From positions 2,061 to 26,060 of the forward strand of contig JAFNFQ010000029.1 of NCBI GenBank assembly GCA_017885655.1: a stretch of 24,000 bases of DNA, given 5' to 3'. How positions within the stretch are numbered: the stretch's first letter is position 1; every line of letters begins with the position of its first letter. Source of the stretch: Methanobacteriota archaeon (GTDB lineage Archaea; Thermoplasmatota; Thermoplasmata; RBG-16-68-12; JAFNFQ01). Below the pieces are notes generated by a model. The model saw nothing but the letters and a program-made list of their open reading frames with translations. It was not told the origin of the DNA and made no database searches. This document shows, piece after piece, positions 3,534-15,426 of the stretch. Position numbers and translations under genes: made by a program.

Positions 3534-4127
3534 TCAGACGGTCCGCCCTCGCGTAGGCGAGCGGGAGGGGATCAGTGGAGACTCAAGCGGCGACGAGGTC
3601 CTTCCCTGCTCCTCATCCGTCACCATCTCCCTCGCCAAGTAACTGATGGCCTCCTTCACGTTCTCGCCGGTCTTGGCGCTGGTCTTGAGAAAGCGAAGGG
3701 CATGCGAGTTGCAGAATCTCTGGACGTCTTCGTCGAGCGACCGGTCTGCCATTTCGAAGTCTACTTTATTGGCCATGACGACGGTCGGGATCTTGCCCAC
3801 GGACGACTGCACGCTGCGTATCCAATCATCCAGCGAGTCGAGCGTCTTAGGCCTGGTCAGGTCGAACACCGCGACGATCCCCCTGACGTGGTTGAAGTAG
3901 GCTGCCTTGAACAGCTCCATGAAGTCCTTGCGGCCCATGATGTCCCAGATCATCAGGGTGATCCTGCACCCCATCTCCGGGAGATCGACTTCCCTCTTGG
4001 AAACCATGGTGCCAACGGTTCTGATGTAGGCCTCGTCAAATGTGTTGCACGCGAACCGGCGGATGAGACACGACTTCCCGACTCCCTCGTCCCCGACCAG
4101 GCACACCTTTCGCTTCATCTCGAGCAT
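3534..4127 (-). CDS. Rab/Ras-superfamily small GTPase (197 aa)
   Basis: G1 is GDEGVGKS. The switch I region is YIRTVG. G3 is WDIMGRK (DxxG retained). G4 is NKVD and G5 is SAKTG. The protein is collinear with eukaryotic Rab1/Ypt1-type sequences, e.g. KVCLVGDEGVGKSCLIRRF against KLLLIGDSGVGKSCLLLRF. Start taken at ATG 4127 (MLEMKRKV) or ATG 4118. The 65-aa Arg-rich extension of the listed ORF overlaps the upstream gene and is rejected. Confidence 0.85.
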   Translation of the reverse strand: MLEMKRKVCLVGDEGVGKSCLIRRFACNTFDEAYIRTVGTMVSKREVDLPEMGCRITLMIWDIMGRKDFMELFKAAYFNHVRGIVAVFDLTRPKTLDSLDDWIRSVQSSVGKIPTVVMANKVDFEMADRSLDEDVQRFCNSHALRFLKTSAKTGENVKEAISYLAREMVTDEEQGRTSSPLESPLIPSRSPTRGRTV

Positions 4128-4149
4128 TTCAGACTCAACCGGCGTAGTC

Positions 4150-4509
4150 TCACGTCCCGCCGTAGTGCCAGAACGTCTCGACCTCGATGCCCCGTTCGGC
4201 TGTGATGCGCTTGGCTGTCTCCAGGCACGATTGGGGAATCGTGACATGCAGCGTCGCCCACTCCGCGAAGTCCTCCAGCTGTTCCCTCGTCTCCGGCTGC
4301 TCGATCGTCTCGCAGGTCTCAACCTCGTTGTAGACCACCTTCCCGCGGTACTCGACCATGATGTCGGGGACGTGCCTGCCCACCACGGGCGGCGTCGGCC
4401 AGCCGTCCAGGTCCGCGGCCACGACCCTCGACCCCTCTTTCTGGTACGTCTGGATCTGCAGCAGGAGCATCCGGTCGTGGAGCTCCTTGTCCGAATCGCT
4501 GACTCTCAT
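4150..4509 (-). CDS. Hypothetical 119-aa protein, paralog of 4727-5089; possible Hjc/restriction-endonuclease-like fold
   Basis: Start at the internal ATG 4509 (MRVSDSDKE...), because the TATA box and palindrome lie at 4542-4569. It stops 20 nt before the GTPase start on the same strand. The segment VPDIMVEYRGKVVYNEVET resembles the PD...(D/E)xK core of Hjc-type nucleases. The fold assignment is tentative. Confidence 0.55.
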   Translation of the reverse strand: MRVSDSDKELHDRMLLLQIQTYQKEGSRVVAADLDGWPTPPVVGRHVPDIMVEYRGKVVYNEVETCETIEQPETREQLEDFAEWATLHVTIPQSCLETAKRITAERGIEVETFWHYGGT

Positions 4510-4730: not shown

Positions 4731-5089
4731 CATCCCGTCACAGCTATGCCGTCCAGTCCCCAACGCTCCAGGTTGGACAGCAACCGCCAGCGCAGGGGCC
4801 AGGGCACGTACACCCTTGTCTCGCCACGTTCGTGCGAGTCCCGAAGCTTCTCTCTCGTTTCCTCAAGGTCGACCTCTTTCTCCAAGAGGATCAGGACCCG
4901 AACCGTTCGAGAACCCTTTGCCGCCCTGATGATCGGGGAGCCTGCTCCCTCCTTTGCCCGGATGGCGGTAGCCCGGAACTCGATGAATCCTTCCTTCTCC
5001 AATAGAGCCTGGCAGCGGCTGACCGCTTTCATTCTGTCTGCATCCGACACGACTCCCTTTCTGGGCATGATCATCTGCATCGCTTGCAT
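4727..5089 (-). CDS. Hypothetical 120-aa protein, paralog of 4150-4509
   Basis: It shares an ordered set of blocks with the 4150-4509 product. These are VSD(A/S)D near the N-terminus, (E/Q)KEG, P(I/D)I, E.E, ETRE(K/Q)L(R/E)D, V(Y/T)(V/I)P and ER(W)G(L/I). The segment LLEKEGFIEFRA...SPIIRAAKGSRTVRVLILLEKE resembles the Hjc N-terminal half (LLEK.GF.V.R...D...G....IE.K) but lacks the Asp. Start ATG 5089 is chosen because it lies ~27 nt from the TATA centre (leaderless) and gives a 120-aa product, against 119 aa for the paralog. ATGs at 5098, 5080, 5074 and 5068 remain possible. Confidence 0.55.
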   Translation of the reverse strand: MQAMQMIMPRKGVVSDADRMKAVSRCQALLEKEGFIEFRATAIRAKEGAGSPIIRAAKGSRTVRVLILLEKEVDLEETREKLRDSHERGETRVYVPWPLRWRLLSNLERWGLDGIAVTGW

Positions 5090-5113
5090 GGTTCTCATGT
5101 TCGATTCGAGACC

Positions 5114-5139
5114 TTTAATACCGCAGTGGAACTGTCCAC
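5114..5139. promoter_or_regulatory. Shared divergent promoter: TTTAATA box plus near-palindrome GTGGAACTGTCCAC
   Basis: TTTAATA lies at 5114-5120 and GTGGAACTGTCCAC at 5126-5139, a 12/14 match to GTGGACATGTCCAC with the outer arms intact. For the + gene (ATG 5144) the palindrome sits between the TATA box and the start codon. For the - gene (ATG 5089) it sits just upstream of the TATA box, as in the other two promoters. Confidence 0.55.
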
Positions 5140-5143
5140 CGCG

Positions 5144-7726
5144 ATGGCTCTGGAGGTGACCGTGGCGGAGCGGTGCCTGCTCTACTTGCTCGACAGGGTG
5201 GGAATTGCCAAGAGCGATCCGGCGTCCGAACAGCTCGTACAAGACCGCATCGCGGAGGTCATTGGTGCCCGTCGCCCGCACGTGTCGAGGGCTCTCAACC
5301 AGCTGGCGAGAGCAGGGCATGTTGACATCGAGAAGGTCCACGTACGAGGGAAGAACAGGAGGGTGCTGGGGTACTTCCTCACTCCGAATGGGGTGCGCAA
5401 GGCAGGAGGGATCAAGAGACTGGTCGAAGAGAAGAAGGTGACCGTAGTCGACCTCGAGGGCAATGAGAAGAGGCTCAGGCTCTTCGAGGCTAGGTCGCTT
5501 CTGGCGCGGAAGCCAAGGCTACTTCAGCTCGCCATGGGCGTGCAGGACGGTCGAATCGACCTGCGCCGCTTCCTGAACCTGGATAAGCGCATGCAAGGCG
5601 GGATGATGTACGACGTTGAAGAGGTGATCTCGGTCCCCCACTTCTCTGGGCGGGAAGATACCCTCGCCCGCCTCGACGGTTTCATGAAGGAGCCGAGTAG
5701 ACGGGGATTCCTGCTCGTGGGCCTGCCGGGCGTCGGCAAGACCGCTCTGGCGTCAAAGTGGGTGGCGGGAGTCAAGGGCCAAATGCATGTTCTGTGGCGT
5801 CGCGTGCAGCCCGGGAGGACGGCCAGCGACACCCTGCGCGACCTGGCAAGAGTCCTCAATGCCGCCGGCAGGCCTGCCCTCATGGAGTCTCTGCAGCAGC
5901 CTGCACAAGATTGGAGGGCGAGGTCGGTCGAGCTCCTCAAGCGGGACCTCCGTGGGATAGTCGTCCTTCTGGTTCTCGACAATGCTCACCTGGCTTCCGA
6001 GGACTTGGGGACACTTGTGTCCGAGATACTCGCAATCGAACCTGCCAACGCAAGTATCAAGGTAATCCTTCTCGGGCGAGAGCGTTGCCAGTTCATCAGG
6101 GCGGAGGACATCGCGAGGGGGAGAGTCCTCCAAGAGGAATTGCCGGATCTCTCCCAGTCTGAAGCTGAACGCATGATGGCGGCGCTGGAAGTGGACAGGG
6201 CGCGTCGAGGTCGCATTTGGGAAGTGTGCGGCGGGCACCCGCTTTCGATCGAACTAGCTGCAGAAGGTGGTGTGTCGGTCGACGCAGTCAAGGAAACATC
6301 CGCATCAAGACTGGCGCAAGAAGTGTTGTCAAGGCTAGATCCCAGGCTGCGCGAGGCCCTGGTCTTCGCCTCTGTCTTCGAGGGTTCAATTCCATTGAGC
6401 CTGCTCGGCGGTCACGGTCGCGAACTGGTCAGGTTGTGCCTCCTTCGGGACGCCGGGAACGGCCGGGCGAGCATGCACGACCTGGTAAGAGCAGCTACGG
6501 TCCGGGGTGCGTCGTCGCAAGAACTCGGAGCCTTCCACAGGCGTGCCGGTGAGTTCCTGGCGAGCAGCAAGGAACCCGGAGAAGCACTGGAAGCCGCTAG
6601 GCATTTCGTGGAATCGGAGGCGTATCCGGAAGCCGAGATCCTTGTCTCCACGAGGGGGCAGGAATTCATCGATGCGGGACTCGCCGAGATGCTGCTCTCG
6701 ACGCTTGAGAAATTGGCATGGACATCGAAGACCACCAAGAGGGAGCCCCCGCTGTCGTTGCTCCGGGCGCAAGCCTTGTTCGCGCTCGGCCGGTGGGCGG
6801 CTGCGTCCAAGGCGTACGAGCTCTGTTCGGGATTCAGGGATGGGCGGATCGCGGCGGAGGCGCTGCTGGGACAGGGCAAGGCGGAGGTTCAGAGACACTC
6901 GCCTCTGGCAGGCAATCACTTGAAGAGGGCGAAACAGAGGTTGGAGCGACTCGGTGCCCTCAGACTGCTTGTGGAGGCAGAGTACTGGGTTGGCGGACAA
7001 CTCGAGGAGACAGGAAGGATCGATGGCGCGCGCGAGGCCTACGAACGGGGCAGAGCGGTTGCCATACAGGTTGGCGATAGACGGTGGGAAGGCCTTTGCA
7101 CCTACGGAATCGGCGGCATCCTCTCGCTCAAGAAGGACTATGCTGGCGCGGCCGAAGAGGACGAGGAGGCGCTGCGACTGCTCGAACGTGACGGTCAGCG
7201 ATTGGAAATCGCCAAGGTGTGCAGTGGATTGGGCGGGGAGTTGATGGAGCTCGGGCGGTATGAGGAATCCGAGAAGTATCTCATGCGCGCAATCGCAGAA
7301 TCACGGGCGACCGGGGCAGTTGGTGTGCTCGCATCCGCGCTGTTCAACTTGGCGGGTCTCCGGAACGAACTGGGCCGAGGTGACGAGGCGATTCCCCTGT
7401 TCACGGAGGCTCTTTCCGAGTTTGACGCGCAGGATAAGTCTTATGAGGCCGCCCTGTGCGCTGCGTGGCTCGCTTCCTATTCATGGATGGCGGGACACGA
7501 GGAGATCGGAAATGAATACGCACGGCGGGCTCGACGGTTGCTTTCCAGGACATTGGAGCCTGCACTCCGGGTCAGGGCGTTGCGCACCTTCGCTCGCGCC
7601 GCGCTGAAGGCGGGCAATAAGGTCACCGCTCGAAAGCATCTTCGTGAAGCCCTCGCCGCCGCCAGAAAGGCCCATCTGGGAAGGGGCGGGTCCGATCTGA
7701 CGGCGGAACTGGACAAGTTGGGCTAG
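5144..7726 (+). CDS. STAND-class NTPase with N-terminal winged-helix DNA-binding domain and C-terminal TPR array (860 aa)
   Basis: The N-terminal wHTH is LLYLLDRVG...DRIAEVIGARRPHVSRALNQLARAGHVDIEKVHVRGKNRRVLGYFLTPNG (MarR/ArsR-like). Walker A is GLPGVGKT. Walker B is VVLLVLDNAH. The NB-ARC-type GxP motif is CGGHPLSIELAA. The C-terminal ~400 aa are Ala/Leu/Glu/Arg-rich helical repeats of TPR type. Start ATG 5144 is preferred over the listed TTG 5084, because the TATA box at 5114-5120 lies inside that extension. Confidence 0.85.
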   Translation: MALEVTVAERCLLYLLDRVGIAKSDPASEQLVQDRIAEVIGARRPHVSRALNQLARAGHVDIEKVHVRGKNRRVLGYFLTPNGVRKAGGIKRLVEEKKVTVVDLEGNEKRLRLFEARSLLARKPRLLQLAMGVQDGRIDLRRFLNLDKRMQGGMMYDVEEVISVPHFSGREDTLARLDGFMKEPSRRGFLLVGLPGVGKTALASKWVAGVKGQMHVLWRRVQPGRTASDTLRDLARVLNAAGRPALMESLQQPAQDWRARSVELLKRDLRGIVVLLVLDNAHLASEDLGTLVSEILAIEPANASIKVILLGRERCQFIRAEDIARGRVLQEELPDLSQSEAERMMAALEVDRARRGRIWEVCGGHPLSIELAAEGGVSVDAVKETSASRLAQEVLSRLDPRLREALVFASVFEGSIPLSLLGGHGRELVRLCLLRDAGNGRASMHDLVRAATVRGASSQELGAFHRRAGEFLASSKEPGEALEAARHFVESEAYPEAEILVSTRGQEFIDAGLAEMLLSTLEKLAWTSKTTKREPPLSLLRAQALFALGRWAAASKAYELCSGFRDGRIAAEALLGQGKAEVQRHSPLAGNHLKRAKQRLERLGALRLLVEAEYWVGGQLEETGRIDGAREAYERGRAVAIQVGDRRWEGLCTYGIGGILSLKKDYAGAAEEDEEALRLLERDGQRLEIAKVCSGLGGELMELGRYEESEKYLMRAIAESRATGAVGVLASALFNLAGLRNELGRGDEAIPLFTEALSEFDAQDKSYEAALCAAWLASYSWMAGHEEIGNEYARRARRLLSRTLEPALRVRALRTFARAALKAGNKVTARKHLREALAAARKAHLGRGGSDLTAELDKLG

Positions 7727-9110: not shown

Positions 9111-9118
9111 CTAAATAG
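9111..9118 (+). promoter_or_regulatory. TATA-like box (CTAAATAG) of the Ubl-E2-E1-JAMM operon
   Basis: It is an AT-rich box 31-38 nt upstream of ATG 9149, preceded by purine-rich AGAAACC (BRE-like). The same CTAAATAG box precedes the 16510 gene at 16467-16474. Confidence 0.4.
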
Positions 9119-9148
9119 CGCGCTCAACATGGCAAACTCAGGTGTCTC

Positions 9149-9394
9149 ATGCCCCAAGTCGTGCTGCGTTTTGTCTTCATAAGTGAAGCGGAAAAGCCCG
9201 TGGTCACCCTCAAGGTCCCCGACGACATGCTCTTCCAGGAAGCCTTCGTCCTGGCCGCGAAGAGGCAGAACAAGGATGCGACGGTGCTCAGCGCGACCTT
9301 CCCCGGCGGCTCGCCGATCCCAGGCGGCACGGTGAAGGAGATTGCGGAGAGGAGCACCAACATCCACGTGATAGATCCCTCGATCGTCGGGTGA
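9149..9394 (+). CDS. UFM1-like ubiquitin-fold modifier (81 aa) ending in ...VG-stop
   Basis: MPQVVLRFVFISEAEKPVVTLKVPDDMLFQEAFVLAAKRQ...TNIHVIDPSIVG can be compared with human UFM1 as recalled: [40 protein letters not shown]...SELRIIPRDRVG(SC). Length is the same to within 2 residues. The VP..F....AA block and the terminal I.P/D...VG are shared. The gene lies directly upstream of the E2 and E1 genes. Confidence 0.75.
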   Translation: MPQVVLRFVFISEAEKPVVTLKVPDDMLFQEAFVLAAKRQNKDATVLSATFPGGSPIPGGTVKEIAERSTNIHVIDPSIVG

Positions 9395-9397
9395 GGC

Positions 9398-9868
9398 ATG
9401 GCCAAGGAAGACGACCTCTTCTACTTTCTCCAGTGCGCGACAGTCGCCTCGCCGCGAGACGATTCTTGGCTCTTGCGGGCGAAGGAGGAGAGGTACGCCC
9501 TCAGGAGGTTCGAGGAGTACCTGAGGTTTCTGGAAGGCGGGAAGTGGTTCAGCCTCAGCCCGACCGGGGACAAGGCGACTAGCTGGACCGGCACGGTATT
9601 CGACGGCCCGCACTCCTGGGACATAGAGCTCGTCCTGAAGGACGCCTATCCCCAGACGCCTCCCGCCTGCCGCATCCCCGAGCTGATGAACTACACCGAC
9701 CGCAAGGTGGACGACGGTGTGCTCGGGCTGAGGCTCTGCGACATGCACATGGAGCAGAACTACTGGTGGGACGACTACTGCAGCATCGCGCTCTACCTGA
9801 AGAGGGAAGTCTCTTACTGGGTGCAGAGCGTGGTCAAGGACATGAGGGGGAAGGGATGGCTTGACTGA
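9398..9868 (+). CDS. UFC1-like E2 (Ubl-conjugating enzyme fold), 156 aa
   Basis: SPRDDSWLLRAKEERYALRRF, WDIELVLKDAYPQTPPACRIPEL and LRLCDMHMEQNYW correspond to human UFC1 [45 protein letters not shown] and KICLTDHFKPLW. There is no HPN motif, as in UFC1. The candidate catalytic residue is Cys114 (nt 9737-9739). The ATG lies 3 nt after the Ubl stop, with GGTGAGG overlapping that stop. Confidence 0.7.
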   Translation: MAKEDDLFYFLQCATVASPRDDSWLLRAKEERYALRRFEEYLRFLEGGKWFSLSPTGDKATSWTGTVFDGPHSWDIELVLKDAYPQTPPACRIPELMNYTDRKVDDGVLGLRLCDMHMEQNYWWDDYCSIALYLKREVSYWVQSVVKDMRGKGWLD

Positions 9869-10616
9869 GCGATACGCGCGTCTCAAGATATTCCCGTTCG
9901 CGGACTTCTCGAAGCTGAAGGAGAAGAAGGTGACCGTCGTCGGCGTCGGCGGCCTCGGCGCGACCTGCGCGGAGATCATGACGCGCTGCGGCGTCGGGCG
10001 CCTGACAATCTTCGACTTCGACAAGCTCGAGGAAGCGAACCTGAACAGGCTGATCTACAGGACTCACCAGGTAGGCATGTTCAAGGTGGACGCGCTCAGG
10101 GAGTACCTCCTCGCGGCGAACTCCGACGTTGAGCTTCTCACCTATCCTAACGACGTCACCGACGGCAAGGGATACGATGCCCTCCTGAAAGAGGCGAGGG
10201 AGTCAGACCTCGTCCTCGGATGCGTCGACTCGTTCCACGTCCGCATATTCCTCAATTCCCTGTGCGTGAGGCTGAAGGTCCCCCTCATCGACGGCGGAGC
10301 CTCCCTTGACGGAATCAACGGTTCGGTGCATTCGATCATCCCCGGCAAGACGCCCTGTTACCGCTGCAACAAGCCCGCCTTGAAGGATGACAGCACAACG
10401 GACCTGAAGAAGGCCGGAGACGGCGCCTGCCACTTCACTTCCCTCCCCACCACCATGGGCATCATCGCGAGCCTGCAATGTCAGGAAGCGCTGAAGTACC
10501 TCCTCGGCTTCGGCAATGTCGCGCCTTACATCCTCTACTATGGCCTGGAGGGGAAGATGCAGAGGTACAACTGGAAACGGGATCCCAAGTGCCCGGTCTG
10601 CGGTGGTGTGAAGTGA
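9861..10616 (+). CDS. UBA5-like E1 (ThiF/MoeB-fold adenylating enzyme), 251 aa
   Basis: Four segments match human UBA5. [43 protein letters not shown] matches [54 protein letters not shown] matches [42 protein letters not shown] matches [38 protein letters not shown] matches NPQCDDRNC. The candidate catalytic residue is Cys190 (nt 10428-10430). The two CxxC pairs form a Zn site. TTG 9861 is the only start upstream of the conserved N-terminus, and it overlaps the E2 gene by 8 nt. Confidence 0.85.
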   Translation: [251 protein letters not shown]

Positions 10617-11572
10617 CGGTCAGCGTGCGCATGCAGCGGAGCGCGTTGCGCAAGATCAACATGCACGTGAACGAGGTCGCGCGGTCGCGAGGCGTCGAGA
10701 CGATCGGCTGGCTCCTCGGCTTCTTCGGGAGGAGCGAGGTCTGGGTCTGCGACTCGGTCCCCTGCACCCGGTACAAGTCGCAGAGCAGGTACGGCGCTCA
10801 TGCGGATGCGAGAGAGGAGGTCGAGCTGGCGATGCAGTACCCCCGGAACGTGGGCATCGTCGGCATCTTCCACAGCCATCCCTTCAGGGGCGAGACGGAG
10901 CACGCGGTGTTCCACAGCGCGACTGATGACAGCACGCTGAAGTCCAGAGCCTCCCGCCACGAGAACTACCTGAGCGTTGTGACGGACGGGACGGACACGG
11001 AGTTCTTCGTGCTCAGGGACGGCGCGCAGCCGGTGAAGCCGGAGATCGTCGAATCGATATCCTACAGGGAGGAGATGAAGTCCTACCGCTGCCCGCTCGC
11101 TTTCAGGCTGAGGCGGGAGACGAGCCTGCCCAGAGTCGACTTCGTGCCCGGCTACCTGGAGCAGGAGATGCTCGCGCTCGTCGAGAGGGACCTGCGGGGC
11201 GATGGCCTCAGGGTCAAGAAGGACTCGAACACGATCGAGGTGCCCGCGCTCCAGGGCGGGGCGGAATCGAACTCCCTGGTCATCACGAAGACCGGCTCGA
11301 CCGCCATGATAGAGCTGGAGATGATCCTGGAACCAATGGTTTTCGTCCGTGGCGGGAACGCGGAGGAGCTGCGCACCGCCGTGAAGAACGAGATACTGGA
11401 CGATGTGGTGTTCCTCCTATGGAACAGCCTCGGCGGCGGGAGTACCTCGCTCGATGGCGTCAAGAGCTTCGAGGCGAACCTCGGCAGCTTCCGCGTGCAC
11501 GAGACGAGCCCACTGCCAAGGAAGATATTCAAGCCGCCCAGGGGATCCGCGGTACTAGTCCGCGAAGGATAG
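10613..11572 (+). CDS. JAMM/MPN+ metalloprotease with ~190-aa C-terminal domain of unknown function (319 aa)
   Basis: The MPN+ signature is present: Glu in VETIGWLLG, then HSHP (nt 10871-10879) ... SATD. Start is GTG 10613, overlapping the E1 stop as GTGA, or ATG 10631. The upstream part of the listed 364-aa ORF overlaps the E1 gene and is rejected. I recognise nothing in the C-terminal half. Confidence 0.8.
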   Translation: MTVSVRMQRSALRKINMHVNEVARSRGVETIGWLLGFFGRSEVWVCDSVPCTRYKSQSRYGAHADAREEVELAMQYPRNVGIVGIFHSHPFRGETEHAVFHSATDDSTLKSRASRHENYLSVVTDGTDTEFFVLRDGAQPVKPEIVESISYREEMKSYRCPLAFRLRRETSLPRVDFVPGYLEQEMLALVERDLRGDGLRVKKDSNTIEVPALQGGAESNSLVITKTGSTAMIELEMILEPMVFVRGGNAEELRTAVKNEILDDVVFLLWNSLGGGSTSLDGVKSFEANLGSFRVHETSPLPRKIFKPPRGSAVLVREG

Positions 11573-11977
11573 CTTCGCCCCGCACTTCGCGCAGAACCTG
11601 TCCTCCTCCTCCACCTCGTTGTTGCACGCCGTGCACTTGAGCACCGCGGGGTTGCCGCACTTCCCGCAGAAGTTGTCGCCCACCTGCATCGGCGTCCCGC
11701 ACTTCCTGCAGATCGCCGCCGGAGGCATGGCGGGCGCGCCCCTCGACCTGCGGTAGCAGTCCCTGCATGTGTACTCGATCACTCCCTTGACCTCGACCTC
11801 CATGTACTTGTCCCTCTCGAGACCGCAGACGGTGCAGAACGGATTGATCTTCTTTGTCGAGAAGTCGACGATGCGCAACTCGGGCTTTGGCGGGACTACG
11901 GGGACTTCTGGGGCCTGTTCTTCGGCCTGCTCCTGAGGTTCCTCCATCTCGCCTTCTTGCTCTTCATCGGGGGGCAT
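11555..11977 (-). CDS. Triple zinc-ribbon protein with acidic N-terminus (140 aa)
   Basis: There are three CxxC...CxxC units: CTVCG...CRDC, CRKCG...CGKCG and CTAC...CAKCG, the last two in double-zinc-ribbon style. The N-terminal 30 aa are Glu/Pro-rich. A TATA-like ATTTTATG (complement of 12005-12012) lies ~30 nt upstream of ATG 11977. The 3' end overlaps the JAMM gene by 18 nt in convergent orientation. Confidence 0.7.
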   Translation of the reverse strand: MPPDEEQEGEMEEPQEQAEEQAPEVPVVPPKPELRIVDFSTKKINPFCTVCGLERDKYMEVEVKGVIEYTCRDCYRRSRGAPAMPPAAICRKCGTPMQVGDNFCGKCGNPAVLKCTACNNEVEEEDRFCAKCGAKLSFAD

Positions 11978-12284
11978 GATGTTACTTTACTACCCCCGCG
12001 CGCACATAAAATACTTTGCCGCATGGATCCAAGTTGGGCTGCAATGAATTCGGTTTCTGCTCTTTCCCGTGCGTAAGGAATGAACGCGGACTCAGACGCT
12101 AGGTGAGTCAAGATGATTGTCCCGAACAGAAAGGACGGCGGCATCGAACGGGGAAGCTTGGAGGGGCGTGCCCAATTTGAGCTTATCTCGCGACAACCGG
12201 CGCGAGCCACCTCAAGGCTGGTGCCGGCCTTCGCACGACCGTGCTGGACTTCCGCTCGTCTGGATCCTGTCTCCGCGCGACCGC

Positions 12285-12347
12285 GCGGAACGTCCGAACA
12301 ACCGTGCGGAACCTCCAATCGTACGCGCGGAACGTCCGGACGGAAGA
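12285..12347 (+). repeat. Three 21-bp-phased GCGGAAC(G/C)TCC units inside a 738-bp non-coding tract
   Basis: GCGGAAC starts at 12285, 12306 and 12327, each step exactly 21 bp. A second phased pair, AAACAGAC(T/G)GCGA, starts at 12540 and 12561. CGCGCGACCG/GCGCGGAAC motifs recur at ~12274 and ~12490. Confidence 0.6.
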
Positions 12348-12715
12348 AACCGCCCTTTTCGACATCAGAGGGGCTGTTCGAGCGGTCGCCGGCAACCGCC
12401 GGACGACTATCCGCGACCTCCGAACGACCGGATTTCGGCCGGTTTCGGCCCAAAAATGCCCGTGACAGCCGCCCGACGCCTCCGCACAGACGCGCGGAAC
12501 CTCCGCGCGACCGAGCGGCGACAGGAACCAGCGCGCCGGAAACAGACTGCGATAGGAAGAAAACAGACGGCGAACCGTCGGCACCGGCGGTCGGTCAGCC
12601 GGGACACGCCATCTGCTGCTCGATTTCCGCCTCCGTGTGGTTTCTCCTCGCCGAGGGCGGGGCGGCGTCCGCGCATGATCATCCAGATAACAGATGGAAT
12701 CTGGTCGGCACTCGA

Positions 12716-15184
12716 TCAACCGTGGATCACGACGGAAATGGTTGTGGTCGAGTTCCCGCCATCGTCGTCGCGGACCGTGAGGCTCACCGCATAGGTCCCG
12801 GGTCCGGGGAAAGCGTGGCTGACCTCCGCCATGGCGGTGAACGGGAAGGTACCGCCTGGGCTCTCTGGCGGGTCCGGCCCGACGCCGTCGTTGAACACGG
12901 TCGAGTTCTGGGGCGTGCTGTTATCCCCAAAGTCCCACTCGAACGTGATGTCGTCGCTTCCTGGGTCCACTGCCGCCGCCTTGAAGCGAACCGCCAGCCT
13001 CGCCACATACGGCGTGAGGTCCACCTCCCACACGTAGGTCCCGGGGTGGTTGACGTTGAACGTGTGGTGTATCCTGACTGGCTCTTCTCCCGGAGACCCG
13101 ACCATGATCCACACGGGGTTCGCGCCATTCGGCTGCCCGTTGATCGGGTCGTCCTCCGGCGTGTACACGATCCTCGCGGAGTAGTTGGCCGAGAGGAACA
13201 GATTCGTCACGTTCGTTGACATCGCCTGATCATCGGGAGAGCCCGGCATCCTGACGATGCGCAGATGGCCGAGCACCGTGTCGTTGATGAAGAAGATGCC
13301 CTCGACGTCGTGCCACTTCTCTCCCGCAACGCGCAGCGTGAACATCCCTGGACGATTGACCTGGACGATCCGCGCGGTCGGCGCGACATTCCTGACGATG
13401 ACCGCTGTCTCATACACCACAAAGGCGCCGTTCTCATCTGTCACAGTGAGGCGGACCGTGTAGTTGCCGTCATCCCCGTACAGGAAGTCGGCGGTGCTGG
13501 TGGCGCTCATCGGCGATCCCGTTGCTGGGAATGTCTCATCCAGGGTGGGCCCGAGTTCGAACTCCCAATGGAATGAGAGGCTGTCGTTGCCCGGATCTGT
13601 TGCGGTGGCGGTCATGCTGCCGGGCGATCCCTCATCAACATAGACCGGTCCGAAGGGGATAATCGTCGGAGGAACATTCTGAATGTGGATCGAGAATGCG
13701 ACCCCGAGGCCACCGCCATCGTCATCCTGAACCGTCAACTCCCCGGCATAGTCCCCGTCTTGCGGGTAGAATGCCGTGAATGTGGATGTGGCGGCGAACG
13801 GGAATGCCCCGAGCGGGCTCTGCGGCGGGTCAGGGCCGGCCCCATCGTTGTAGAACACCCTCGACTCCACGTCGCCGTTTCCGAAGTCCACGGTGAAATG
13901 GAGGTCATCGCTCCCCGGGTCCTGTGCGGTTGCTGTCATGTCGACGTGCGACCCCTCGTCTGCAGTGGCTGGGAATGAAAGTGCGATGATTGTCGGCGGG
14001 AGGTTCTGCACGACCGCGAGCTTCCCTCCGAGCATCCCGACACCGCCATCGTCGTCGGCCGCGATGATCTCGAGCGGGAAGCTGCCGTCATCTCCGTAAG
14101 TCCGCGTGGCGGTCACCGCCTGTCCGCTCGGGTTGAACCACGTGCCGATGAATTCCGGCGGGAGGCCGTCTCCCCAATCCACCGTGACATTCACCGGATC
14201 TGCTCCTGGGTCGGTGACGCTGAACTGCAGCGTGATCATACCGCCCTCTGAAGAATCCGTGACTGAGCCGAAGGTTATTGACGGGGGGACATTCTTCACA
14301 CCAACGTCGGCCAACGTGGAATTCTGCAGTTTGCCATCGGAGACCGTGAGCTTCGCTCTTCCCTTGAAGTCGTCAGGATATGTGTGGCTGACCGTGGCGT
14401 TCATCGTCGTGATGTCCGTGGTGCCGTCGTTCTCGAAGTCCCATGAGTAGGTGAGCGCATCGCCATCGGGGTCATAGGAACCGCTCGCGTTGAACAGGAT
14501 CGGAGACCCCTCGGTGCCGATGTACGGCCCGCCGCCGTTCGCCACAGGAGGCTTGTTGCATGCGCTCCCAATCGTGACCTGCCCAGTCATCGAGAGCGGG
14601 ATATGGGTCCCGTCACCGTCGACCCAGCGCTGGTAGCGCGCCGGGTCCGGGCCATAGTGTGTCAGGTCCACCTTCAGGGTCCACTCGCTGCTCGTCGGCA
14701 GCGGTCCAAGAGCGCCGCCGTCCGTGTTGGTGAAGTAATGGAACTGGCCCTGGGGATTGCGCGCCAGGTTGAACTCCCCGGGGTCGTCGGAGACCGCCAC
14801 TGAAGCTCCTGCCGGGATTCCCTGTAGCTCAACATCCGTCAGCGCATCAGGCGTTCCGCTCCCGTCGACGTTGAAGTGGAATACGAAGTACAGCTTGCTG
14901 CTCCCCGTGTCAAGATAGAGATAGAGCACGCTCACGTAGGCCTCAACGAACGGCGTGTGTGCGCTATCGCTGTAGTAGTTGTAGAACGAGCTGACTGTCT
15001 GCGCTCGCTCGACGGGCTCTACTGGATGGTCCGACCCGCCCTGGGTGACCTCGAACAAGCAGGGCAGCGTCACCGTCTGAGGCGACGGCGGCTGCGGCAT
15101 GTTGTAGCCAGAAATGGAATTCACGAAGAGGCACCCGACCAAAAGTGCGGCAATAATCCTCACGGTCCCCGCCTCCAGACCCAT
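12716..15184 (-). CDS. Secreted multi-PKD-domain surface protein (822 aa)
   Basis: PKD signatures recur: FNASGSYDPDGDALTYSWDFENDGT, WDFGDNSTP, FTVDFGNGD, VTVDWGDG, and repeated NVPPTI linkers. Start is ATG 15184 (MGLEAGTVRIIAALLVGCLFVNSISG, a signal peptide). An AT-rich box lies ~30 nt upstream (complement of ~15207-15224). The longer listed N-terminus lies upstream of that box. Confidence 0.8.
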   Translation of the reverse strand: MGLEAGTVRIIAALLVGCLFVNSISGYNMPQPPSPQTVTLPCLFEVTQGGSDHPVEPVERAQTVSSFYNYYSDSAHTPFVEAYVSVLYLYLDTGSSKLYFVFHFNVDGSGTPDALTDVELQGIPAGASVAVSDDPGEFNLARNPQGQFHYFTNTDGGALGPLPTSSEWTLKVDLTHYGPDPARYQRWVDGDGTHIPLSMTGQVTIGSACNKPPVANGGGPYIGTEGSPILFNASGSYDPDGDALTYSWDFENDGTTDITTMNATVSHTYPDDFKGRAKLTVSDGKLQNSTLADVGVKNVPPSITFGSVTDSSEGGMITLQFSVTDPGADPVNVTVDWGDGLPPEFIGTWFNPSGQAVTATRTYGDDGSFPLEIIAADDDGGVGMLGGKLAVVQNLPPTIIALSFPATADEGSHVDMTATAQDPGSDDLHFTVDFGNGDVESRVFYNDGAGPDPPQSPLGAFPFAATSTFTAFYPQDGDYAGELTVQDDDGGGLGVAFSIHIQNVPPTIIPFGPVYVDEGSPGSMTATATDPGNDSLSFHWEFELGPTLDETFPATGSPMSATSTADFLYGDDGNYTVRLTVTDENGAFVVYETAVIVRNVAPTARIVQVNRPGMFTLRVAGEKWHDVEGIFFINDTVLGHLRIVRMPGSPDDQAMSTNVTNLFLSANYSARIVYTPEDDPINGQPNGANPVWIMVGSPGEEPVRIHHTFNVNHPGTYVWEVDLTPYVARLAVRFKAAAVDPGSDDITFEWDFGDNSTPQNSTVFNDGVGPDPPESPGGTFPFTAMAEVSHAFPGPGTYAVSLTVRDDDGGNSTTTISVVIHG

Positions 15185-15426
15185 GAGTCCAGATTCGCTG
15201 GCAAGCTCATAAGTCTTTTGTAGAGCGTGGGGCGCGGTGGTCTGCATGCTGGGTAGTGGTGCAGAATGAAGGATCGCGAGATTGCGGGGAGGAATTCGCA
15301 CCGGCGAGAGAGATTCCCTGCTTCCTCATGATGAAGTTGAGGAAAGGCACCGCAAGGTCGAATAATCCCCGGTCCAAGTAGAAAGCGTGGCTCCCGCGTC
15401 AGTCCTCTTGTTCACCTGATCGCAGC

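What the first reader, a model, noticed from the sequence alone, without database searches (positions are those of the whole stretch)
9111..11572. Operon-encoded UFM1 / UFC1 / UBA5-like conjugation cassette coupled to a JAMM protease
Four co-oriented, abutting or overlapping genes encode an 81-aa Ubl, a 156-aa E2-fold protein, a 251-aa ThiF-type E1 and a 319-aa JAMM/MPN+ protease.

Compared at motif level with the human proteins as I remember them, the first three are closer to the UFM1 pathway than to ubiquitin, SAMP/MoaD/ThiS or Urm1.
- Ubl: VVTLKVPDDMLFQEAFVLAAKRQ...IHVIDPSIVG against UFM1 [22 protein letters not shown]...LRIIPRDRVG.
- E2: SPRDDSWLLRAKEERYALRRF / YPQTPPACRIPEL / LRLCDMHMEQNYW against UFC1 [22 protein letters not shown] / [13 protein letters not shown] / KICLTDHFKPLW. 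It has no HPN motif, as in UFC1.
- E1: [82 protein letters not shown] and DPKCPVCG against the corresponding UBA5 segments.

UFMylation is normally treated as a eukaryotic pathway: UBA5, UFC1, the UFL1 complex, UfSP cysteine proteases, and ribosomal uL24/RPL26 as main target. Here the three core parts sit in one prokaryote-style operon with a metalloprotease.

This layout recalls the Ubl-E2-E1-JAB operons predicted computationally by Iyer, Burroughs and Aravind, and the bacterial Bil antiphage systems. The difference is that the parts here are UFM1-type. I cannot tell from memory whether such an archaeal cassette has been described.
Basis: partly seen in the sequence, partly recalled or inferred. 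Interest (0 to 1): 0.92.

Follow-up and report, generated by a model that had tools for sequence, protein, structure and literature searches.

The report
Archaeal UFM1-type protein-tagging operon
A non-Asgard archaeon (Thermoplasmata) carries, in one four-gene operon, clear relatives of the UFM1 tag, its E2 (UFC1) and its E1 (UBA5) plus a metalloprotease, although published surveys treat the UFC1 E2 as eukaryote-only and report the UFM1 tag only from eukaryotes and Asgard archaea.

Summary
Four co-oriented, abutting or overlapping genes lie at 9149-11572 (+).

- **Tag (81 aa):** its predicted fold matches UFM1 best (top 11 PDB hits, TM 0.79-0.85). It ends in Val-Gly, like mature UFM1.
- **E2 (156 aa):** it passes Pfam's UFC1 threshold and has the UFC1 fold (TM about 0.8, against about 0.4 for ordinary E2s). 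Cys114 aligns with the human catalytic Cys116.
- **E1 (251 aa):** it is closest to human UBA5 (7e-48, against MoeB 2e-30). The catalytic Cys and both zinc CxxC motifs are kept, but UBA5's C-terminal tail is missing.
- **Protease (319 aa):** a complete JAMM motif with an unusually long spacer.

The same gene order recurs in 31 Thermoplasmata species. A sister cassette (E1-JAB-Ubl-E2, sometimes a Ubl-E2 fusion) occurs in contigs whose named relatives are Asgard and Korarchaeota.

Most likely this is a reversible UFM1-type protein-conjugation system. Its targets are unknown and no biochemistry exists.

The papers I could search call UFC1 eukaryote-only and report Ufm1 only from Asgard archaea among prokaryotes. 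I rate it a new variant of a known kind, of high interest.

The parts
9112..9117 (+). TAAATA element 32-37 nt upstream of the Ubl start codon; a possible archaeal TATA box for the operon
   Evidence: Read directly from the sequence. Inference only: the promoter tool does not cover archaeal promoters.
9149..9394 (+). UFM1-like ubiquitin-fold modifier, 81 aa, ending ...IDPSIVG-stop. The C-terminal Gly81 is already exposed.
   Evidence: ORF. 68 homologues with an invariant C-terminal VG; 46 of 64 end exactly at VG and 18 carry variable 1-12 aa tails. AF2 pLDDT 90.9. Foldseek: top 11 PDB hits are all UFM1, TM 0.79-0.85, rmsd 1.4-1.8. A profile search of the PDB returns only UFM1 entries, but weakly (best E 0.18). 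hhalign against human UFM1: 76%, E 2e-5; other Ubls below 4%.
9398..9868 (+). UFC1-family E2, 156 aa, catalytic Cys114 (nt 9737-9739), no HPN motif. GGTGAGG lies just upstream of its ATG.
   Evidence: Pfam PF08694 UFC1: 35.5 bits against a cut-off of 25. Profile against the PDB: 26 UFC1 chains, best 2.9e-8, full length, with Cys114 aligned to human Cys116. hhalign against a eukaryotic UFC1 profile: 99.1%, E 8e-19. AF2 pLDDT 90.3; Foldseek top 29 hits are UFC1 at TM 0.70-0.81, canonical E2s at about 0.4. Cys114 is invariant in the family.
9861..10616 (+). UBA5-like E1 consisting of the adenylation domain only, 251 aa. Features: GVGGLG ATP loop (nt 9942-9959), catalytic Cys190 (nt 10428-10430), zinc motifs C166xxC169 and C244xxC247. 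It has no C-terminal UIS/UBS tail.
   Evidence: Pfam ThiF 177 bits. Best PDB hits are human UBA5 at 7e-48, against MoeB 2e-30 and ThiF 1e-22, with [15 protein letters not shown] aligned to the UBA5 Cys250 segment. No NCBIfam MoeB, ThiF or UbaA model reaches its cut-off. JGI names many homologues 'ubiquitin-like modifier-activating enzyme 5'. HMM scores and NJ tree. The protein ends 3 residues after the second CxxC.
10613..11572 (+). JAMM/MPN+ metalloprotease, 319 aa from GTG 10613. N-terminal JAB domain with Glu29, His87-x-His89 and Ser102-x-x-Asp105, and a 12-residue spacer instead of the usual 7. It also has a family-specific C-terminal domain of about 170 aa of unknown fold.
   Evidence: Pfam Prok-JAB 22.2 bits (cut-off 25) and JAB 21.2 bits (cut-off 22.5) for the window protein. 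Sister-family members pass, at 27-38 bits. Glu, His-x-His, Ser and Asp are invariant in 18-30 homologues. Profile against the PDB: Caldiarchaeum Rpn11-like protein at 7e-4, then CSN5 and BRCC36. The C-terminal half has no Pfam or PDB match.
11555..11977 (-). Convergent gene whose 3' end overlaps the protease gene by 18 nt. It encodes a 140-aa protein with an acidic N-terminus and three zinc ribbons. Role unknown; possibly an adaptor, an E3-like factor or a substrate.
   Evidence: Pfam Zn_Ribbon_1 at 52 bits and DZR at 45.5 bits. It is found directly downstream of the cassette, convergent, in 21 of 32 Thermoplasmata loci, while other flanking genes are not conserved. Any link to the cassette's function is inferred from this adjacency only.

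Best explanation
This is a self-contained, reversible UFM1-type protein-conjugation system of a Thermoplasmata archaeon.

**Shown by homology and structure prediction**
- The 81-aa protein is a UFM1-like beta-grasp modifier with an exposed C-terminal Val-Gly.
- The 251-aa protein is a UBA5-type, presumably homodimeric, adenylating E1. Its catalytic Cys190 sits in the crossover-loop position of UBA5 Cys250.
- The 156-aa protein is a UFC1-type E2. Its Cys114 sits at the position of UFC1 Cys116.
- The 319-aa protein is an MPN+ zinc isopeptidase.

**Inferred mechanism**
1. The E1 uses ATP to adenylate Gly81 of the modifier.
2. The E1 takes the modifier as a thioester on Cys190.
3. The modifier passes to E2 Cys114.
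4. The E2 transfers it to lysines of target proteins. It does this either directly or with help from a factor outside the four genes. The conserved convergent zinc-ribbon protein is one candidate.
5. The JAMM protease removes the modifier from targets.
6. In relatives whose modifier carries a 1-12 aa tail, or is fused to the E2, the protease also exposes the terminal glycine.

The targets, and therefore the physiological role, are unknown.
For: - Identity of the Ubl, E2 and E1 with the UFM1, UFC1 and UBA5 families.
- Catalytic residues are invariant across the families.
- An invariant C-terminal Gly followed by variable, dispensable tails is the signature of a C-terminally activated modifier that needs a processing protease.
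- Operon structure with overlapping genes.
- The four-gene order is conserved in 31 species-level Thermoplasmata genomes, four of them deposited as whole chromosomes (2.0-5.2 Mb), with unrelated flanks.
- The same four families recur together in a second archaeal lineage in a different order (E1-JAB-Ubl-E2, or divergent pairs). Co-occurrence despite rearrangement argues for a functional unit.
- The JAB's nearest solved relatives are deubiquitinating or deneddylating enzymes (Caldiarchaeum Rpn11-like protein, CSN5, BRCC36).
Against: - There is no experimental evidence of any kind. No step of the chemistry has been shown.
- The window's Ubl does not reach any Pfam threshold, and its sequence-only link to UFM1 is weak (best E 0.18 in the PDB profile search).
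- The E1 lacks the UBA5 C-terminal UFM1-interacting and UFC1-binding sequences. Ubl recruitment and E1-to-E2 transfer therefore cannot work exactly as in human UBA5.
- No UFL1, DDRGK1 or CDK5RAP3-like E3, and no UfSP protease, lies in the window.
- The JAMM spacer is non-canonical (12 residues rather than 7), and the window protein falls just under Pfam's JAB thresholds.
- The equivalence of UFC1's TAK motif to the invariant archaeal T100-D-R-K103 is unresolved, because two alignments disagree.
Confidence: 0.78

Rival explanations
1. Anti-virus or conflict system. On this reading the cassette is an archaeal counterpart of the bacterial Ubl-E2-E1-JAB defence operons (Bil, Bub, type II CBASS Cap2/Cap3). 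It would tag viral or host proteins during infection rather than carry out a housekeeping modification.
For: - The four-part layout matches those bacterial operons.
- The E1 hits PADLOC 'E1-E2' models at up to 1.4e-25.
- A STAND-type HTH-AAA-TPR ATPase lies 1.4 kb upstream in the window.
- One Lokiarchaeota relative of the sister E2 family is fused to SIR2 and TPR domains, which are common in defence proteins.
Against: - The PADLOC hits cover only the generic ThiF adenylation domain. The E2 (E 0.011) and the JAB (E 2.6e-4) barely register, and the Ubl gets no hit.
- The cassette's neighbours differ between species and include housekeeping genes (tRNA and methyltransferase genes in L001).
- It was found once per locus in 31 species, at 50-97% identity. 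I read that as vertical inheritance, but I built no species tree to test it.
- Neither E2 family was found in 2.9 million viral contigs.
- The STAND gene is not conserved next to the cassette.
Confidence: 0.12
2. Sulfur-carrier system. On this reading the small protein is a MoaD/ThiS/SAMP-like sulfur carrier, the E1 is a MoeB/ThiF/UbaA-like adenylyltransferase, and the pair works in cofactor or tRNA thiolation, with or without SAMP-like conjugation.
For: - The E1 belongs to the ThiF superfamily and scores 105-130 bits against the NCBIfam MoeB, ThiF and UbaA models.
- NCBI annotates homologues as 'HesA/MoeB/ThiF family protein'.
- Archaeal SAMPs are known to do both jobs and are paired with JAMM proteases (established knowledge; PMC4443979, listed).
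Against: - All of those NCBIfam scores are far below the curated cut-offs (266-450 bits).
- UBA5 outscores MoeB and ThiF by 90-120 bits.
- The carrier ends in Val-Gly, not the Gly-Gly of MoaD, ThiS and SAMPs (established knowledge).
- Its fold matches UFM1, and no MoaD or ThiS appears among the top 50; hhalign probability against MoaD, ThiS and Urm1 is 0.5% or less.
- An E2 with an invariant catalytic Cys is always present, and sulfur-transfer systems do not need one.
- The E1 has no rhodanese domain, and no MoaE, ThiG or Ncs6-type gene lies in the window.
Confidence: 0.04
3. Recent acquisition from a eukaryote, or eukaryotic contamination of the assembly, so that the cassette says nothing about archaeal biology or origins.
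For: - With a eukaryotic UFC1 HMM, the Thermoplasmata E2 scores higher (median 55 bits) than the Asgard-type E2 (31 bits).
- UFC1 had been reported only from eukaryotes (PMC10183829).
Against: - The genes overlap in a prokaryotic operon at the same G+C (about 61%) as the rest of the window.
- The cassette sits inside archaeal records of 2.0-5.2 Mb deposited as whole chromosomes.
- Identity to the human proteins is only about 25% for the E2 and about 36% for the E1.
- In an NJ tree the eukaryotic, Asgard-type and Thermoplasmata E2s form three separate clades, each with 100/100 support, and Thermoplasmata is not nested inside eukaryotes.
- The partner protease is a prokaryotic-type JAB shared with the Asgard-type cassette, not a UfSP.
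Confidence: 0.03

Closest known systems
Eukaryotic UFMylation core (UFM1, UBA5, UFC1)
   Same: All three core proteins have their best, and essentially only, matches there.
- The UFM1 fold and the C-terminal Val-Gly.
- The UFC1 fold, the catalytic Cys position and the absence of HPN.
- The UBA5 adenylation domain, with the catalytic Cys in the crossover loop and two CxxC zinc motifs.
- Some relatives carry short tails after the Gly, as the human precursor does with Ser-Cys.
   Different: - The genes form one prokaryotic operon.
- The protease is a JAMM metalloprotease, not a UfSP cysteine protease.
- The window's E1 stops right after the adenylation domain and has no UIS/UBS tail.
- No UFL1, DDRGK1 or CDK5RAP3 lies in the window.
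- There is no endoplasmic reticulum, so the eukaryotic ER-ribosome role cannot simply be carried over.
- Sequence identity is low: about 20% (Ubl), 25% (E2) and 36% (E1).
Asgard archaeal Ufm1 homologues (Koestlbacher et al., Nat Microbiol 2026, PMC12962969)
   Same: I found a second archaeal family of UFM1-like modifiers ending in (V/A)G. It aligns over its full length with the window's Ubl (hhalign 94.7%, E 6e-8). Named relatives of the E2s encoded next to them come from Promethearchaeota, Heimdallarchaeota, Lokiarchaeota and Korarchaeota. These are probably the proteins that paper reports, but that is my inference.
   Different: - The paper states that Ufm1 homologues occur in no prokaryote other than Asgard archaea, and its main text mentions neither UFC1 nor UBA5.
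- The window is from Thermoplasmata.
- Both lineages carry the full Ubl, UFC1-like E2, UBA5-like E1 and JAB set side by side.
Caldiarchaeum subterraneum-type archaeal ubiquitin operon (Ub, E1, E2, small RING E3, Rpn11)
   Same: It is an archaeal operon encoding a complete modifier, E1 and E2 cascade together with a JAMM protease. The window's JAB has the Caldiarchaeum Rpn11-like protein as its best solved relative.
   Different: - That system uses genuine ubiquitin (Gly-Gly C-terminus), a canonical UQ_con E2 and a RING E3 (established knowledge; PMC5654768 and PMC6043591, listed).
- Here the modifier, E2 and E1 are all of the UFM1 type, and canonical E2s match the E2 model only at TM about 0.4.
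- No RING protein is present. The neighbouring protein has zinc ribbons, not a RING.
Prokaryotic Ubl-E2-E1-JAB operons predicted by Iyer, Burroughs and Aravind; bacterial Bil and Bub systems
   Same: The same four functional parts sit in one operon, and the same general chemistry is expected.
   Different: - Those E2s and Ubls belong to other families. The window's E2 hits Pfam Prok-E2_B only at E 0.046.
- PADLOC models match only the generic adenylation domain.
- BubCD lacks the crossover-loop cysteine (PMC11601596), whereas this E1 keeps it.
- The host is archaeal, and nothing in the neighbourhood points to defence.
Archaeal SAMP/UbaA sampylation with HvJAMM1
   Same: It is an archaeal ubiquitin-fold modifier activated by a ThiF-type E1 and removed by a JAMM protease.
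   Different: - Sampylation needs no E2, and SAMPs end in Gly-Gly and double as sulfur carriers (established knowledge).
- Here an E2 is always present, the terminus is Val-Gly, and the UbaA model scores 105 bits against a cut-off of 450.

Membership tests
UFM1 (Pfam PF03671 Ufm1) | Beta-grasp fold closest to UFM1 rather than to Ub, SUMO, MoaD or ThiS | tested here: met
   AF2 pLDDT 90.9. Foldseek against the PDB: ranks 1-11 are all UFM1, at TM 0.79-0.85 and rmsd 1.4-1.8 A. SUMO follows at TM about 0.7. No MoaD, ThiS or SAMP appears in the top 50.
UFM1 (Pfam PF03671 Ufm1) | Significant sequence match to the family model | tested here: inconclusive
   The window protein has no Pfam hit even at E 1. 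Seven of 20 family members hit Ufm1 weakly, best E 0.0069. All 13 PDB hits of the family profile are UFM1, but the best E is 0.18. hhalign against human UFM1 gives 76%, E 2e-5, over 42 columns; controls stay below 4%.
UFM1 (Pfam PF03671 Ufm1) | C-terminal Val-Gly exposed for activation, optionally followed by a short removable tail | tested here: met
   The window protein ends ...SIVG-stop. VG is invariant in the family. 46 of 64 homologues end at VG and 18 have 1-12 aa tails.
UFC1 (Pfam PF08694) | Score above Pfam's gathering threshold | tested here: met
   35.5 bits against a cut-off of 25, E 9.7e-9. Nearly all 96 homologues carry a precomputed PF08694 hit.
UFC1 (Pfam PF08694) | UFC1-type E2 fold, distinct from canonical UBC | tested here: met
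   AF2 pLDDT 90.3. Foldseek ranks 1-29 are all UFC1 at TM 0.70-0.81; canonical E2s score TM 0.36-0.48.
UFC1 (Pfam PF08694) | Catalytic cysteine at the position of human Cys116; no HPN motif | tested here: met
   Cys114 aligns with Cys116 in both the HMMER and hhalign alignments and is invariant in 17 of 17 sequences. There is no HPN in the sequence.
UFC1 (Pfam PF08694) | TAK motif (Thr106-Ala-Lys108) in place of HPN | tested here: inconclusive
   An invariant T100-D-R-K103 lies in the same loop, but the HMMER and hhalign alignments place it differently relative to TAK. A structural superposition was not available.
UBA5-type E1 | Closer to UBA5 than to MoeB, ThiF, UbaA or Uba4 | tested here: met
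   phmmer against the PDB: UBA5 7e-48, MoeB 2e-30, ThiF 1e-22, Uba4 1e-17. Family HMM scores: UBA5 232 bits, MoeB 142, ThiF 112. In an NJ tree UBA5 plus the archaeal E1s separate from MoeB and ThiF in 200 of 200 replicates. NCBIfam UbaA scores 105 bits against 450. Caveat: one eukaryotic sequence, two outgroups, and no UbaA in the tree.
UBA5-type E1 | [quoted passage not shown] | tested here: met
   GDGAC(190)[10 protein letters not shown] aligns with REGVC(250)[9 protein letters not shown]. C166xxC169 and C244xxC247 align with the human pairs and are conserved in both archaeal families.
UBA5-type E1 | C-terminal UFM1-interacting sequence and UFC1-binding sequence | tested here: not met
   The window's E1 ends 3 residues after the second CxxC. 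Some relatives have a tail of about 25 aa with an acidic amphipathic helix, but a PDB search with one such tail found no UBA5 match.
JAMM/MPN+ metalloprotease | E...HxH...SxxD zinc-site motif | tested here: met
   Glu29, His87, His89, Ser102 and Asp105 are invariant in the family. The spacer is 12 residues (up to 22 in relatives) instead of the canonical 7. The sister family has 6-8.
JAMM/MPN+ metalloprotease | Score above the Pfam JAB or Prok-JAB thresholds | tested here: inconclusive
   The window protein scores 22.2 against 25 and 21.2 against 22.5. Sister-family members score 27-38 bits and pass, and they match the window family's HMM at about 100 bits. The family profile hits the Rpn11-like protein, CSN5 and BRCC36 in the PDB at 7e-4 to 0.2.
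Complete eukaryotic UFMylation pathway | UFL1-DDRGK1-CDK5RAP3 E3 complex and UfSP cysteine protease | tested here: not met
   None was found in the window: Pfam scans of the cassette, its neighbour and 10 further window ORFs. The rest of the genome could not be searched. In the sister lineage, the conserved neighbours X370 and TM-PCI show no UFL1 or DDRGK1 match in PDB profile searches.
Complete eukaryotic UFMylation pathway | Ribosomal protein uL24 (RPL26) as the main substrate | not testable with these tools
   No proteomic data exist, and the host's uL24 is not in the window.
Known anti-phage Ubl systems (PADLOC models: CBASS Cap2/Cap3-type E1-E2 and JAB) | Full-length match of the E1-E2 and JAB proteins to the defence-system models | tested here: not met
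   Only the ThiF domain of the E1 matches (best 1.4e-25, covering a partial stretch of the model). The E2 scores E 0.011, the JAB E 2.6e-4, and the Ubl gets no hit.

The most novel reading that the evidence does not exclude
The UFM1 system did not arise in eukaryotes, and did not arise piecemeal. Its catalytic core (modifier, UBA5-type E1 and UFC1-type E2) already existed in Archaea as a compact operon with a JAMM protease. That operon is present in at least two deep lineages: Thermoplasmata on one side, and Asgard plus Korarchaeota on the other. Eukaryotes inherited it, later swapped the protease for UfSP and added the UFL1 complex. The Thermoplasmata operon would then be a minimal, E3-independent UFMylation machine whose native targets, perhaps the ribosome, reveal the ancestral function of UFMylation.
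Probability: 0.5. Interest if true: 0.9.

Novelty: new variant of a known kind. Interest (0 to 1): 0.82.

Why it matters
**What the published surveys say.** UFMylation is one of the least understood ubiquitin-like pathways, and its origin is disputed.
- One survey found Ufm1 absent from Archaea and Bacteria (PMC4327156).
- A third found Ufm1 in Asgard archaea but in no other prokaryote (PMC12962969).

**What this cassette changes.** It shows the tag, the E2 and the E1 together, physically linked, in a non-Asgard archaeon. My searches show the same linked set in Asgard-type contigs. This turns the origin of UFMylation into a question that phylogeny can test.

**What it offers experimentally.**
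- Four small soluble proteins for reconstituting a minimal UFM1-type cascade in vitro.
- A natural experiment on how UBA5 and UFC1 work without the UBA5 tail or the UFL1 E3.

**What it suggests.** Archaea may have a reversible protein modification that has not been described.

Tried and rejected
1. **Structure of the JAB protein.** The fold of its C-terminal domain of about 170 aa therefore stays unknown. Pfam and a PDB profile search gave nothing for it.
2. **AFDB search.** A Foldseek search of the E2 model against afdb50 was unavailable.
3. **C-terminal tails of longer archaeal E1s.** I tested whether they resemble the UBA5 UFC1-binding sequence. A PDB phmmer search with one such tail hit only designed pentatricopeptide repeat proteins by chance. 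The idea is unsupported, and the window's E1 has no tail anyway.
4. **Conserved neighbours of the Asgard-type cassette.** I tested whether X370 and the multi-TM + PCI protein are UFL1 or DDRGK1 homologues. The PDB profile searches showed no such match. X370 has only a LysW-like zinc ribbon, at E 0.03.
5. **Viral origin.** Neither E2 family was found in the viral contig collection.
6. **First metagenome scan.** The 14-sequence alignment was too divergent. I repeated the scan with five sequences.
7. **E1 homologue search.** It returned only close Thermoplasmata relatives among the 120 listed, so it gave no outgroups. I took E. coli MoeB and ThiF from the MG1655 record instead.
8. **Literature.** Searches for any description of archaeal UFC1, or of a Thermoplasmata UFM1 cassette, found nothing. 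Supplements of PMC12962969 are not held.
9. **Typed-in reference sequences.** Small errors would not change the outcome, because independent PDB searches agree.

Full report
**1. What is in the window**

One search lists four co-oriented ORFs on the + strand:
- 9149-9394 (81 aa, ATG);
- 9398-9868 (156 aa, ATG);
- 9861-10616 (251 aa, TTG);
- 10478-11572.

Homologues of the fourth protein begin at the position of a GTG at 10613, which overlaps the E1 stop codon. The junctions are a 3-nt gap, an 8-nt overlap and a 4-nt overlap, which is typical of a translationally coupled operon. G+C is about 0.61, the same as in the rest of the window. A TAAATA element at 9112-9117, 32-37 nt upstream of the first ATG, may be the archaeal TATA box. 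That is inference from reading the sequence.

**2. The E2**

- It scores 35.5 bits on Pfam UFC1 (PF08694), above the curated cut-off of 25.
- A profile of 17 homologues finds 26 UFC1 chains in the PDB (best 2.9e-8, full length) and nothing else credible. Cys114 aligns with human Cys116.
- Profile-profile comparison with eukaryotic UFC1 gives 99.1% probability, E 8e-19. Against UBE2D2 it gives 8.8%.
- An AlphaFold2 model (pLDDT 90.3) has UFC1 as its top 29 PDB matches (TM 0.70-0.81). Canonical E2s reach only TM about 0.4.
- Cys114 is invariant in the family.
- Whether the invariant T100-D-R-K103 corresponds to UFC1's TAK motif is unresolved, because two alignments disagree.

**3. The E1**

- Its best solved relatives are human UBA5 structures (7e-48). 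MoeB follows at 2e-30 and ThiF at 1e-22.
- The UBA5 catalytic segment, REGVC(250)AASLPTTMG, aligns with GDGAC(190)[10 protein letters not shown]. Both zinc CxxC pairs are present.
- No NCBIfam model for MoeB, ThiF or the SAMP-activating UbaA comes near its cut-off: 130 against 266 bits, and 105 against 450.
- JGI's pipeline already labels many homologues 'ubiquitin-like modifier-activating enzyme 5'.
- With E. coli MoeB and ThiF taken from the MG1655 record, the family HMM scores human UBA5 at 232 bits, MoeB at 142 and ThiF at 112. A neighbour-joining tree separates UBA5 plus the archaeal E1s from MoeB and ThiF in 200 of 200 replicates.
- Important difference: the protein ends three residues after the second CxxC. 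It therefore lacks UBA5's C-terminal UFM1-interacting and UFC1-binding sequences.

**4. The modifier**

Sequence evidence alone is weak:
- The window protein has no Pfam hit.
- Seven of 20 homologues touch Pfam Ufm1 weakly.
- The family profile's only PDB hits are 13 UFM1 entries, but the best E is 0.18.
- hhalign against human UFM1 gives 76%, E 2e-5. Against ubiquitin, SUMO1, NEDD8, MoaD, ThiS, Urm1 and Atg8 it stays below 4%.

Structure decides the question. A pLDDT-91 model has UFM1 as its top 11 PDB matches (TM 0.79-0.85, rmsd 1.4-1.8 A). SUMO follows at about 0.7, and no sulfur carrier appears in the top 50.

The C-terminus is also diagnostic. Val-Gly is invariant. Of 64 homologues, 46 stop exactly there and 18 carry variable tails of 1-12 residues. 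That is the pattern of a modifier activated at its terminal glycine, and Val-Gly is UFM1's own terminus.

**5. The protease**

- The N-terminal half is a JAB/MPN+ domain. Glu29, His87-x-His89 and Ser102-x-x-Asp105 are invariant, but the spacer is 12 residues (up to 22 in relatives) instead of 7.
- The window protein falls just below the Pfam thresholds.
- Its family profile finds the Caldiarchaeum Rpn11-like protein, CSN5 and BRCC36 in the PDB.
- The C-terminal domain of about 170 aa is conserved within the family but matches nothing.

**6. Host and conservation**

- Named homologues come from Thermoplasmata, Methanomassiliicoccales and 'Methanobacteriota' MAGs.
- A scan of one genome per GTDB species found 31 loci, all from such archaea. 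One is 97% identical to the window, and four lie on records deposited as whole chromosomes, 2.0-5.2 Mb long.
- The order Ubl-E2-E1-JAB holds in essentially all of them, while the flanking genes differ.
- The only other recurrent neighbour is a convergent zinc-ribbon protein (window 11555-11977, minus strand). It is present in 21 loci, and its 3' end overlaps the protease gene by 18 nt.
- Neither E2 family occurs in the viral contig collection.

**7. A sister cassette elsewhere in Archaea**

An exhaustive HMM search of 1.84 billion representative proteins with the E2 profile gave only 45 hits. They fall into three groups:
- the Thermoplasmata family;
- eukaryotic UFC1, at 45-70% identity to human;
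- a second archaeal family with an ICHDHM active site.

Named members of the second family come from Promethearchaeota, Heimdallarchaeota, Lokiarchaeota and Korarchaeota. Several are fusions of a modifier ending in ...RDDVG...GGVG or ...GEVG to the E2.

A metagenome scan recovered 55 loci for this family. Wherever the contig was long enough, the same four families sit together as E1-JAB-Ubl-E2 or as divergent pairs. The Thermoplasmata E1 HMM matches at about 235 bits and the JAB HMM at about 100 bits. The two modifier families align end to end (hhalign 94.7%, E 6e-8).

- In an E2 tree, the eukaryotic, Asgard-type and Thermoplasmata groups form three clades, each with 100/100 support. Thermoplasmata is not nested in eukaryotes.
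- In the E1 tree, human UBA5 joins the Asgard-type clade in 175 of 200 replicates.

These trees are small neighbour-joining analyses with thin outgroup sampling. They indicate a direction; they do not settle it.

**8. Most likely mechanism**

The identities of the parts and their catalytic residues are shown by homology and structure prediction. The steps below are inferred from what is established for UBA5, UFC1 and MPN+ proteases.
1. The E1 adenylates Gly81 of the modifier with ATP.
2. The E1 forms a thioester with the modifier on Cys190.
3. The modifier passes to E2 Cys114.
4. The E2 aminolyses onto target lysines, either directly or with an accessory factor.
5. The JAMM enzyme reverses the modification. 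In relatives with tails or Ubl-E2 fusions, it also matures the modifier.

Because the window's own modifier already ends in Gly, its protease should act mainly as a deconjugase. How the tail-less E1 recruits the modifier and the E2 is unknown. Targets and physiological role are also unknown.

**9. Rivals**

- **Defence system (about 0.12).** It fits the layout. However, PADLOC models match only the generic adenylation domain, the neighbourhood is not defence-like, and I read the spread over 31 species as vertical inheritance, without a species tree to test it.
- **Sulfur-carrier role (about 0.04).** It is contradicted by the obligatory E2, the Val-Gly end, the UFM1 fold and the sub-threshold MoeB, ThiF and UbaA scores.
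- **Eukaryotic contamination or recent transfer (about 0.03).** It is contradicted by the operon structure, the chromosomal context, the low identities and the tree.

**10. Comparison with the literature**

- Grau-Bove et al. (PMC4327156) found Ufm1 absent from Archaea and Bacteria.
- Picchianti et al. (PMC10183829) found UFM1, UFC1, UFSP2 and C53 only in eukaryotes, UBA5 in diverse prokaryotes, and UFL1 and DDRGK1 in Asgard archaea.
- Koestlbacher et al. [quoted passage not shown] Their main text mentions neither UFC1 nor UBA5.
- Eight full-text searches found no description of an archaeal UFC1 or of this cassette.

The library lacks most subscription journals, so prior description elsewhere cannot be excluded. 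Automated annotations (Pfam UFC1 hits and JGI's UBA5 labels) already exist in databases.

**11. Verdict**

The kind of system is known: a prokaryotic Ubl-E2-E1-JAB operon on one side, and the UFM1 cascade on the other. The combination is what appears new. It is a UFM1-type cascade in an operon with a JAMM protease, in a non-Asgard archaeon, and it has a sister cassette in Asgard and Korarchaeota. I rate it a new variant of a known kind, of high interest. Two caveats apply: everything rests on sequence and predicted structure, and the targets are unknown.

Noticed in passing
L033-L087 (e.g. L044 1412-4371; L042 4524-7471; L033 6977-9869): A second archaeal version of the cassette, whose named relatives are Promethearchaeota, Heimdallarchaeota, Lokiarchaeota and Korarchaeota. 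It holds a UBA5-like E1, a JAB, a UFM1-like Ubl and a UFC1-like E2 with an ICHDHM active site, ordered E1-JAB-Ubl-E2 or as divergent pairs. The E2 scores just under Pfam's UFC1 cut-off (23.4 against 25), which may be why it has escaped annotation.
   Followed up: yes
P0173-P0176, P0183; L039 336-1196, L042 6653-7471, L046 6656-7471, L048 6656-7471, L079 841-1656: Natural Ubl-E2 fusion proteins. A UFM1-like domain ending in ...DVG, ...VG or ...AG is joined by a short linker to the UFC1-like E2. This implies cleavage after the glycine, presumably by the neighbouring JAB.
   Followed up: partly
L041 1981-3594; L049 4316-5645; L061 6935-8165; P0178, P0198: Some Asgard-type loci carry two tandem UFC1-like E2 genes. 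Two representatives (P0178, P0198) lack the catalytic cysteine, so they may be UEV-like pseudo-E2s.
   Followed up: no
P0189 (866 aa, Lokiarchaeota): A SIR2 + TPR + UFC1-like E2 fusion protein, with a possible Ubl-like C-terminal segment. This architecture hints at a conflict or defence use of the same E2 family.
   Followed up: no
L044 309-1394, L042 3365-4489, L061 1523-2632 and 14 other loci: A 370-aa protein with no Pfam hit sits directly upstream of the E1 in about 17 Asgard-type loci. It ends in a LysW-like zinc ribbon. The Thermoplasmata cassette also has a zinc-ribbon neighbour, so this may be a shared accessory factor. A PDB profile search showed no similarity to UFL1.
   Followed up: partly
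L074 4011-4709, L056 1791-3168, L051 13116-14521 and others (16 loci); also L044 5983-7107: Multi-pass membrane proteins with a C-terminal PCI or winged-helix domain (Pfam PCI 24.6 bits), and an SPFH/Band-7 protein, recur near the Asgard-type cassette. DDRGK1 is a membrane-anchored PCI-like protein (from memory), but a PDB profile search gave no DDRGK1 match.
   Followed up: partly
L001 8480-9370, L023, L026-L029, L031; L044, L048, L055, L062 (E1 C-termini): Many archaeal E1s in both families, though not the window's, carry a tail of about 25 aa: a basic linker followed by an acidic amphipathic helix (e.g. KLEEIEKAAEMFDKMT, KDIDDIIEKIE). It could be a partner-docking motif analogous to the UBA5 C-terminus. 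A PDB search with one such tail found no UBA5 match.
   Followed up: partly
window 3534-4322 (-): A 262-aa Ras/Roc/Arf-type small GTPase (Pfam Ras 116 bits). This is another eukaryote-like signalling protein in this archaeal contig.
   Followed up: no
window 5084-7726 (+): An 880-aa STAND-type protein (HTH + AAA_16/AAA_22 ATPase + TPR repeats) lies 1.4 kb upstream of the cassette. It is not conserved next to the cassette in other genomes.
   Followed up: partly
L019 8981-9364 and 13 other Thermoplasmata loci: A small DUF6015/TFIIE-alpha-like winged-helix protein often follows the zinc-ribbon gene downstream of the cassette. It was not detected in the window's 24 kb by the ORF clustering.
   Followed up: no
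window 11980-12715: An intergenic stretch of about 730 nt lies between the zinc-ribbon gene and the 861-aa surface protein gene (12716-15301, minus strand; not scanned against Pfam). It holds only overlapping Arg/Pro-rich ORFs on both strands, which look like high-G+C artefacts. I did not search it for RNA genes or repeats.
   Followed up: no
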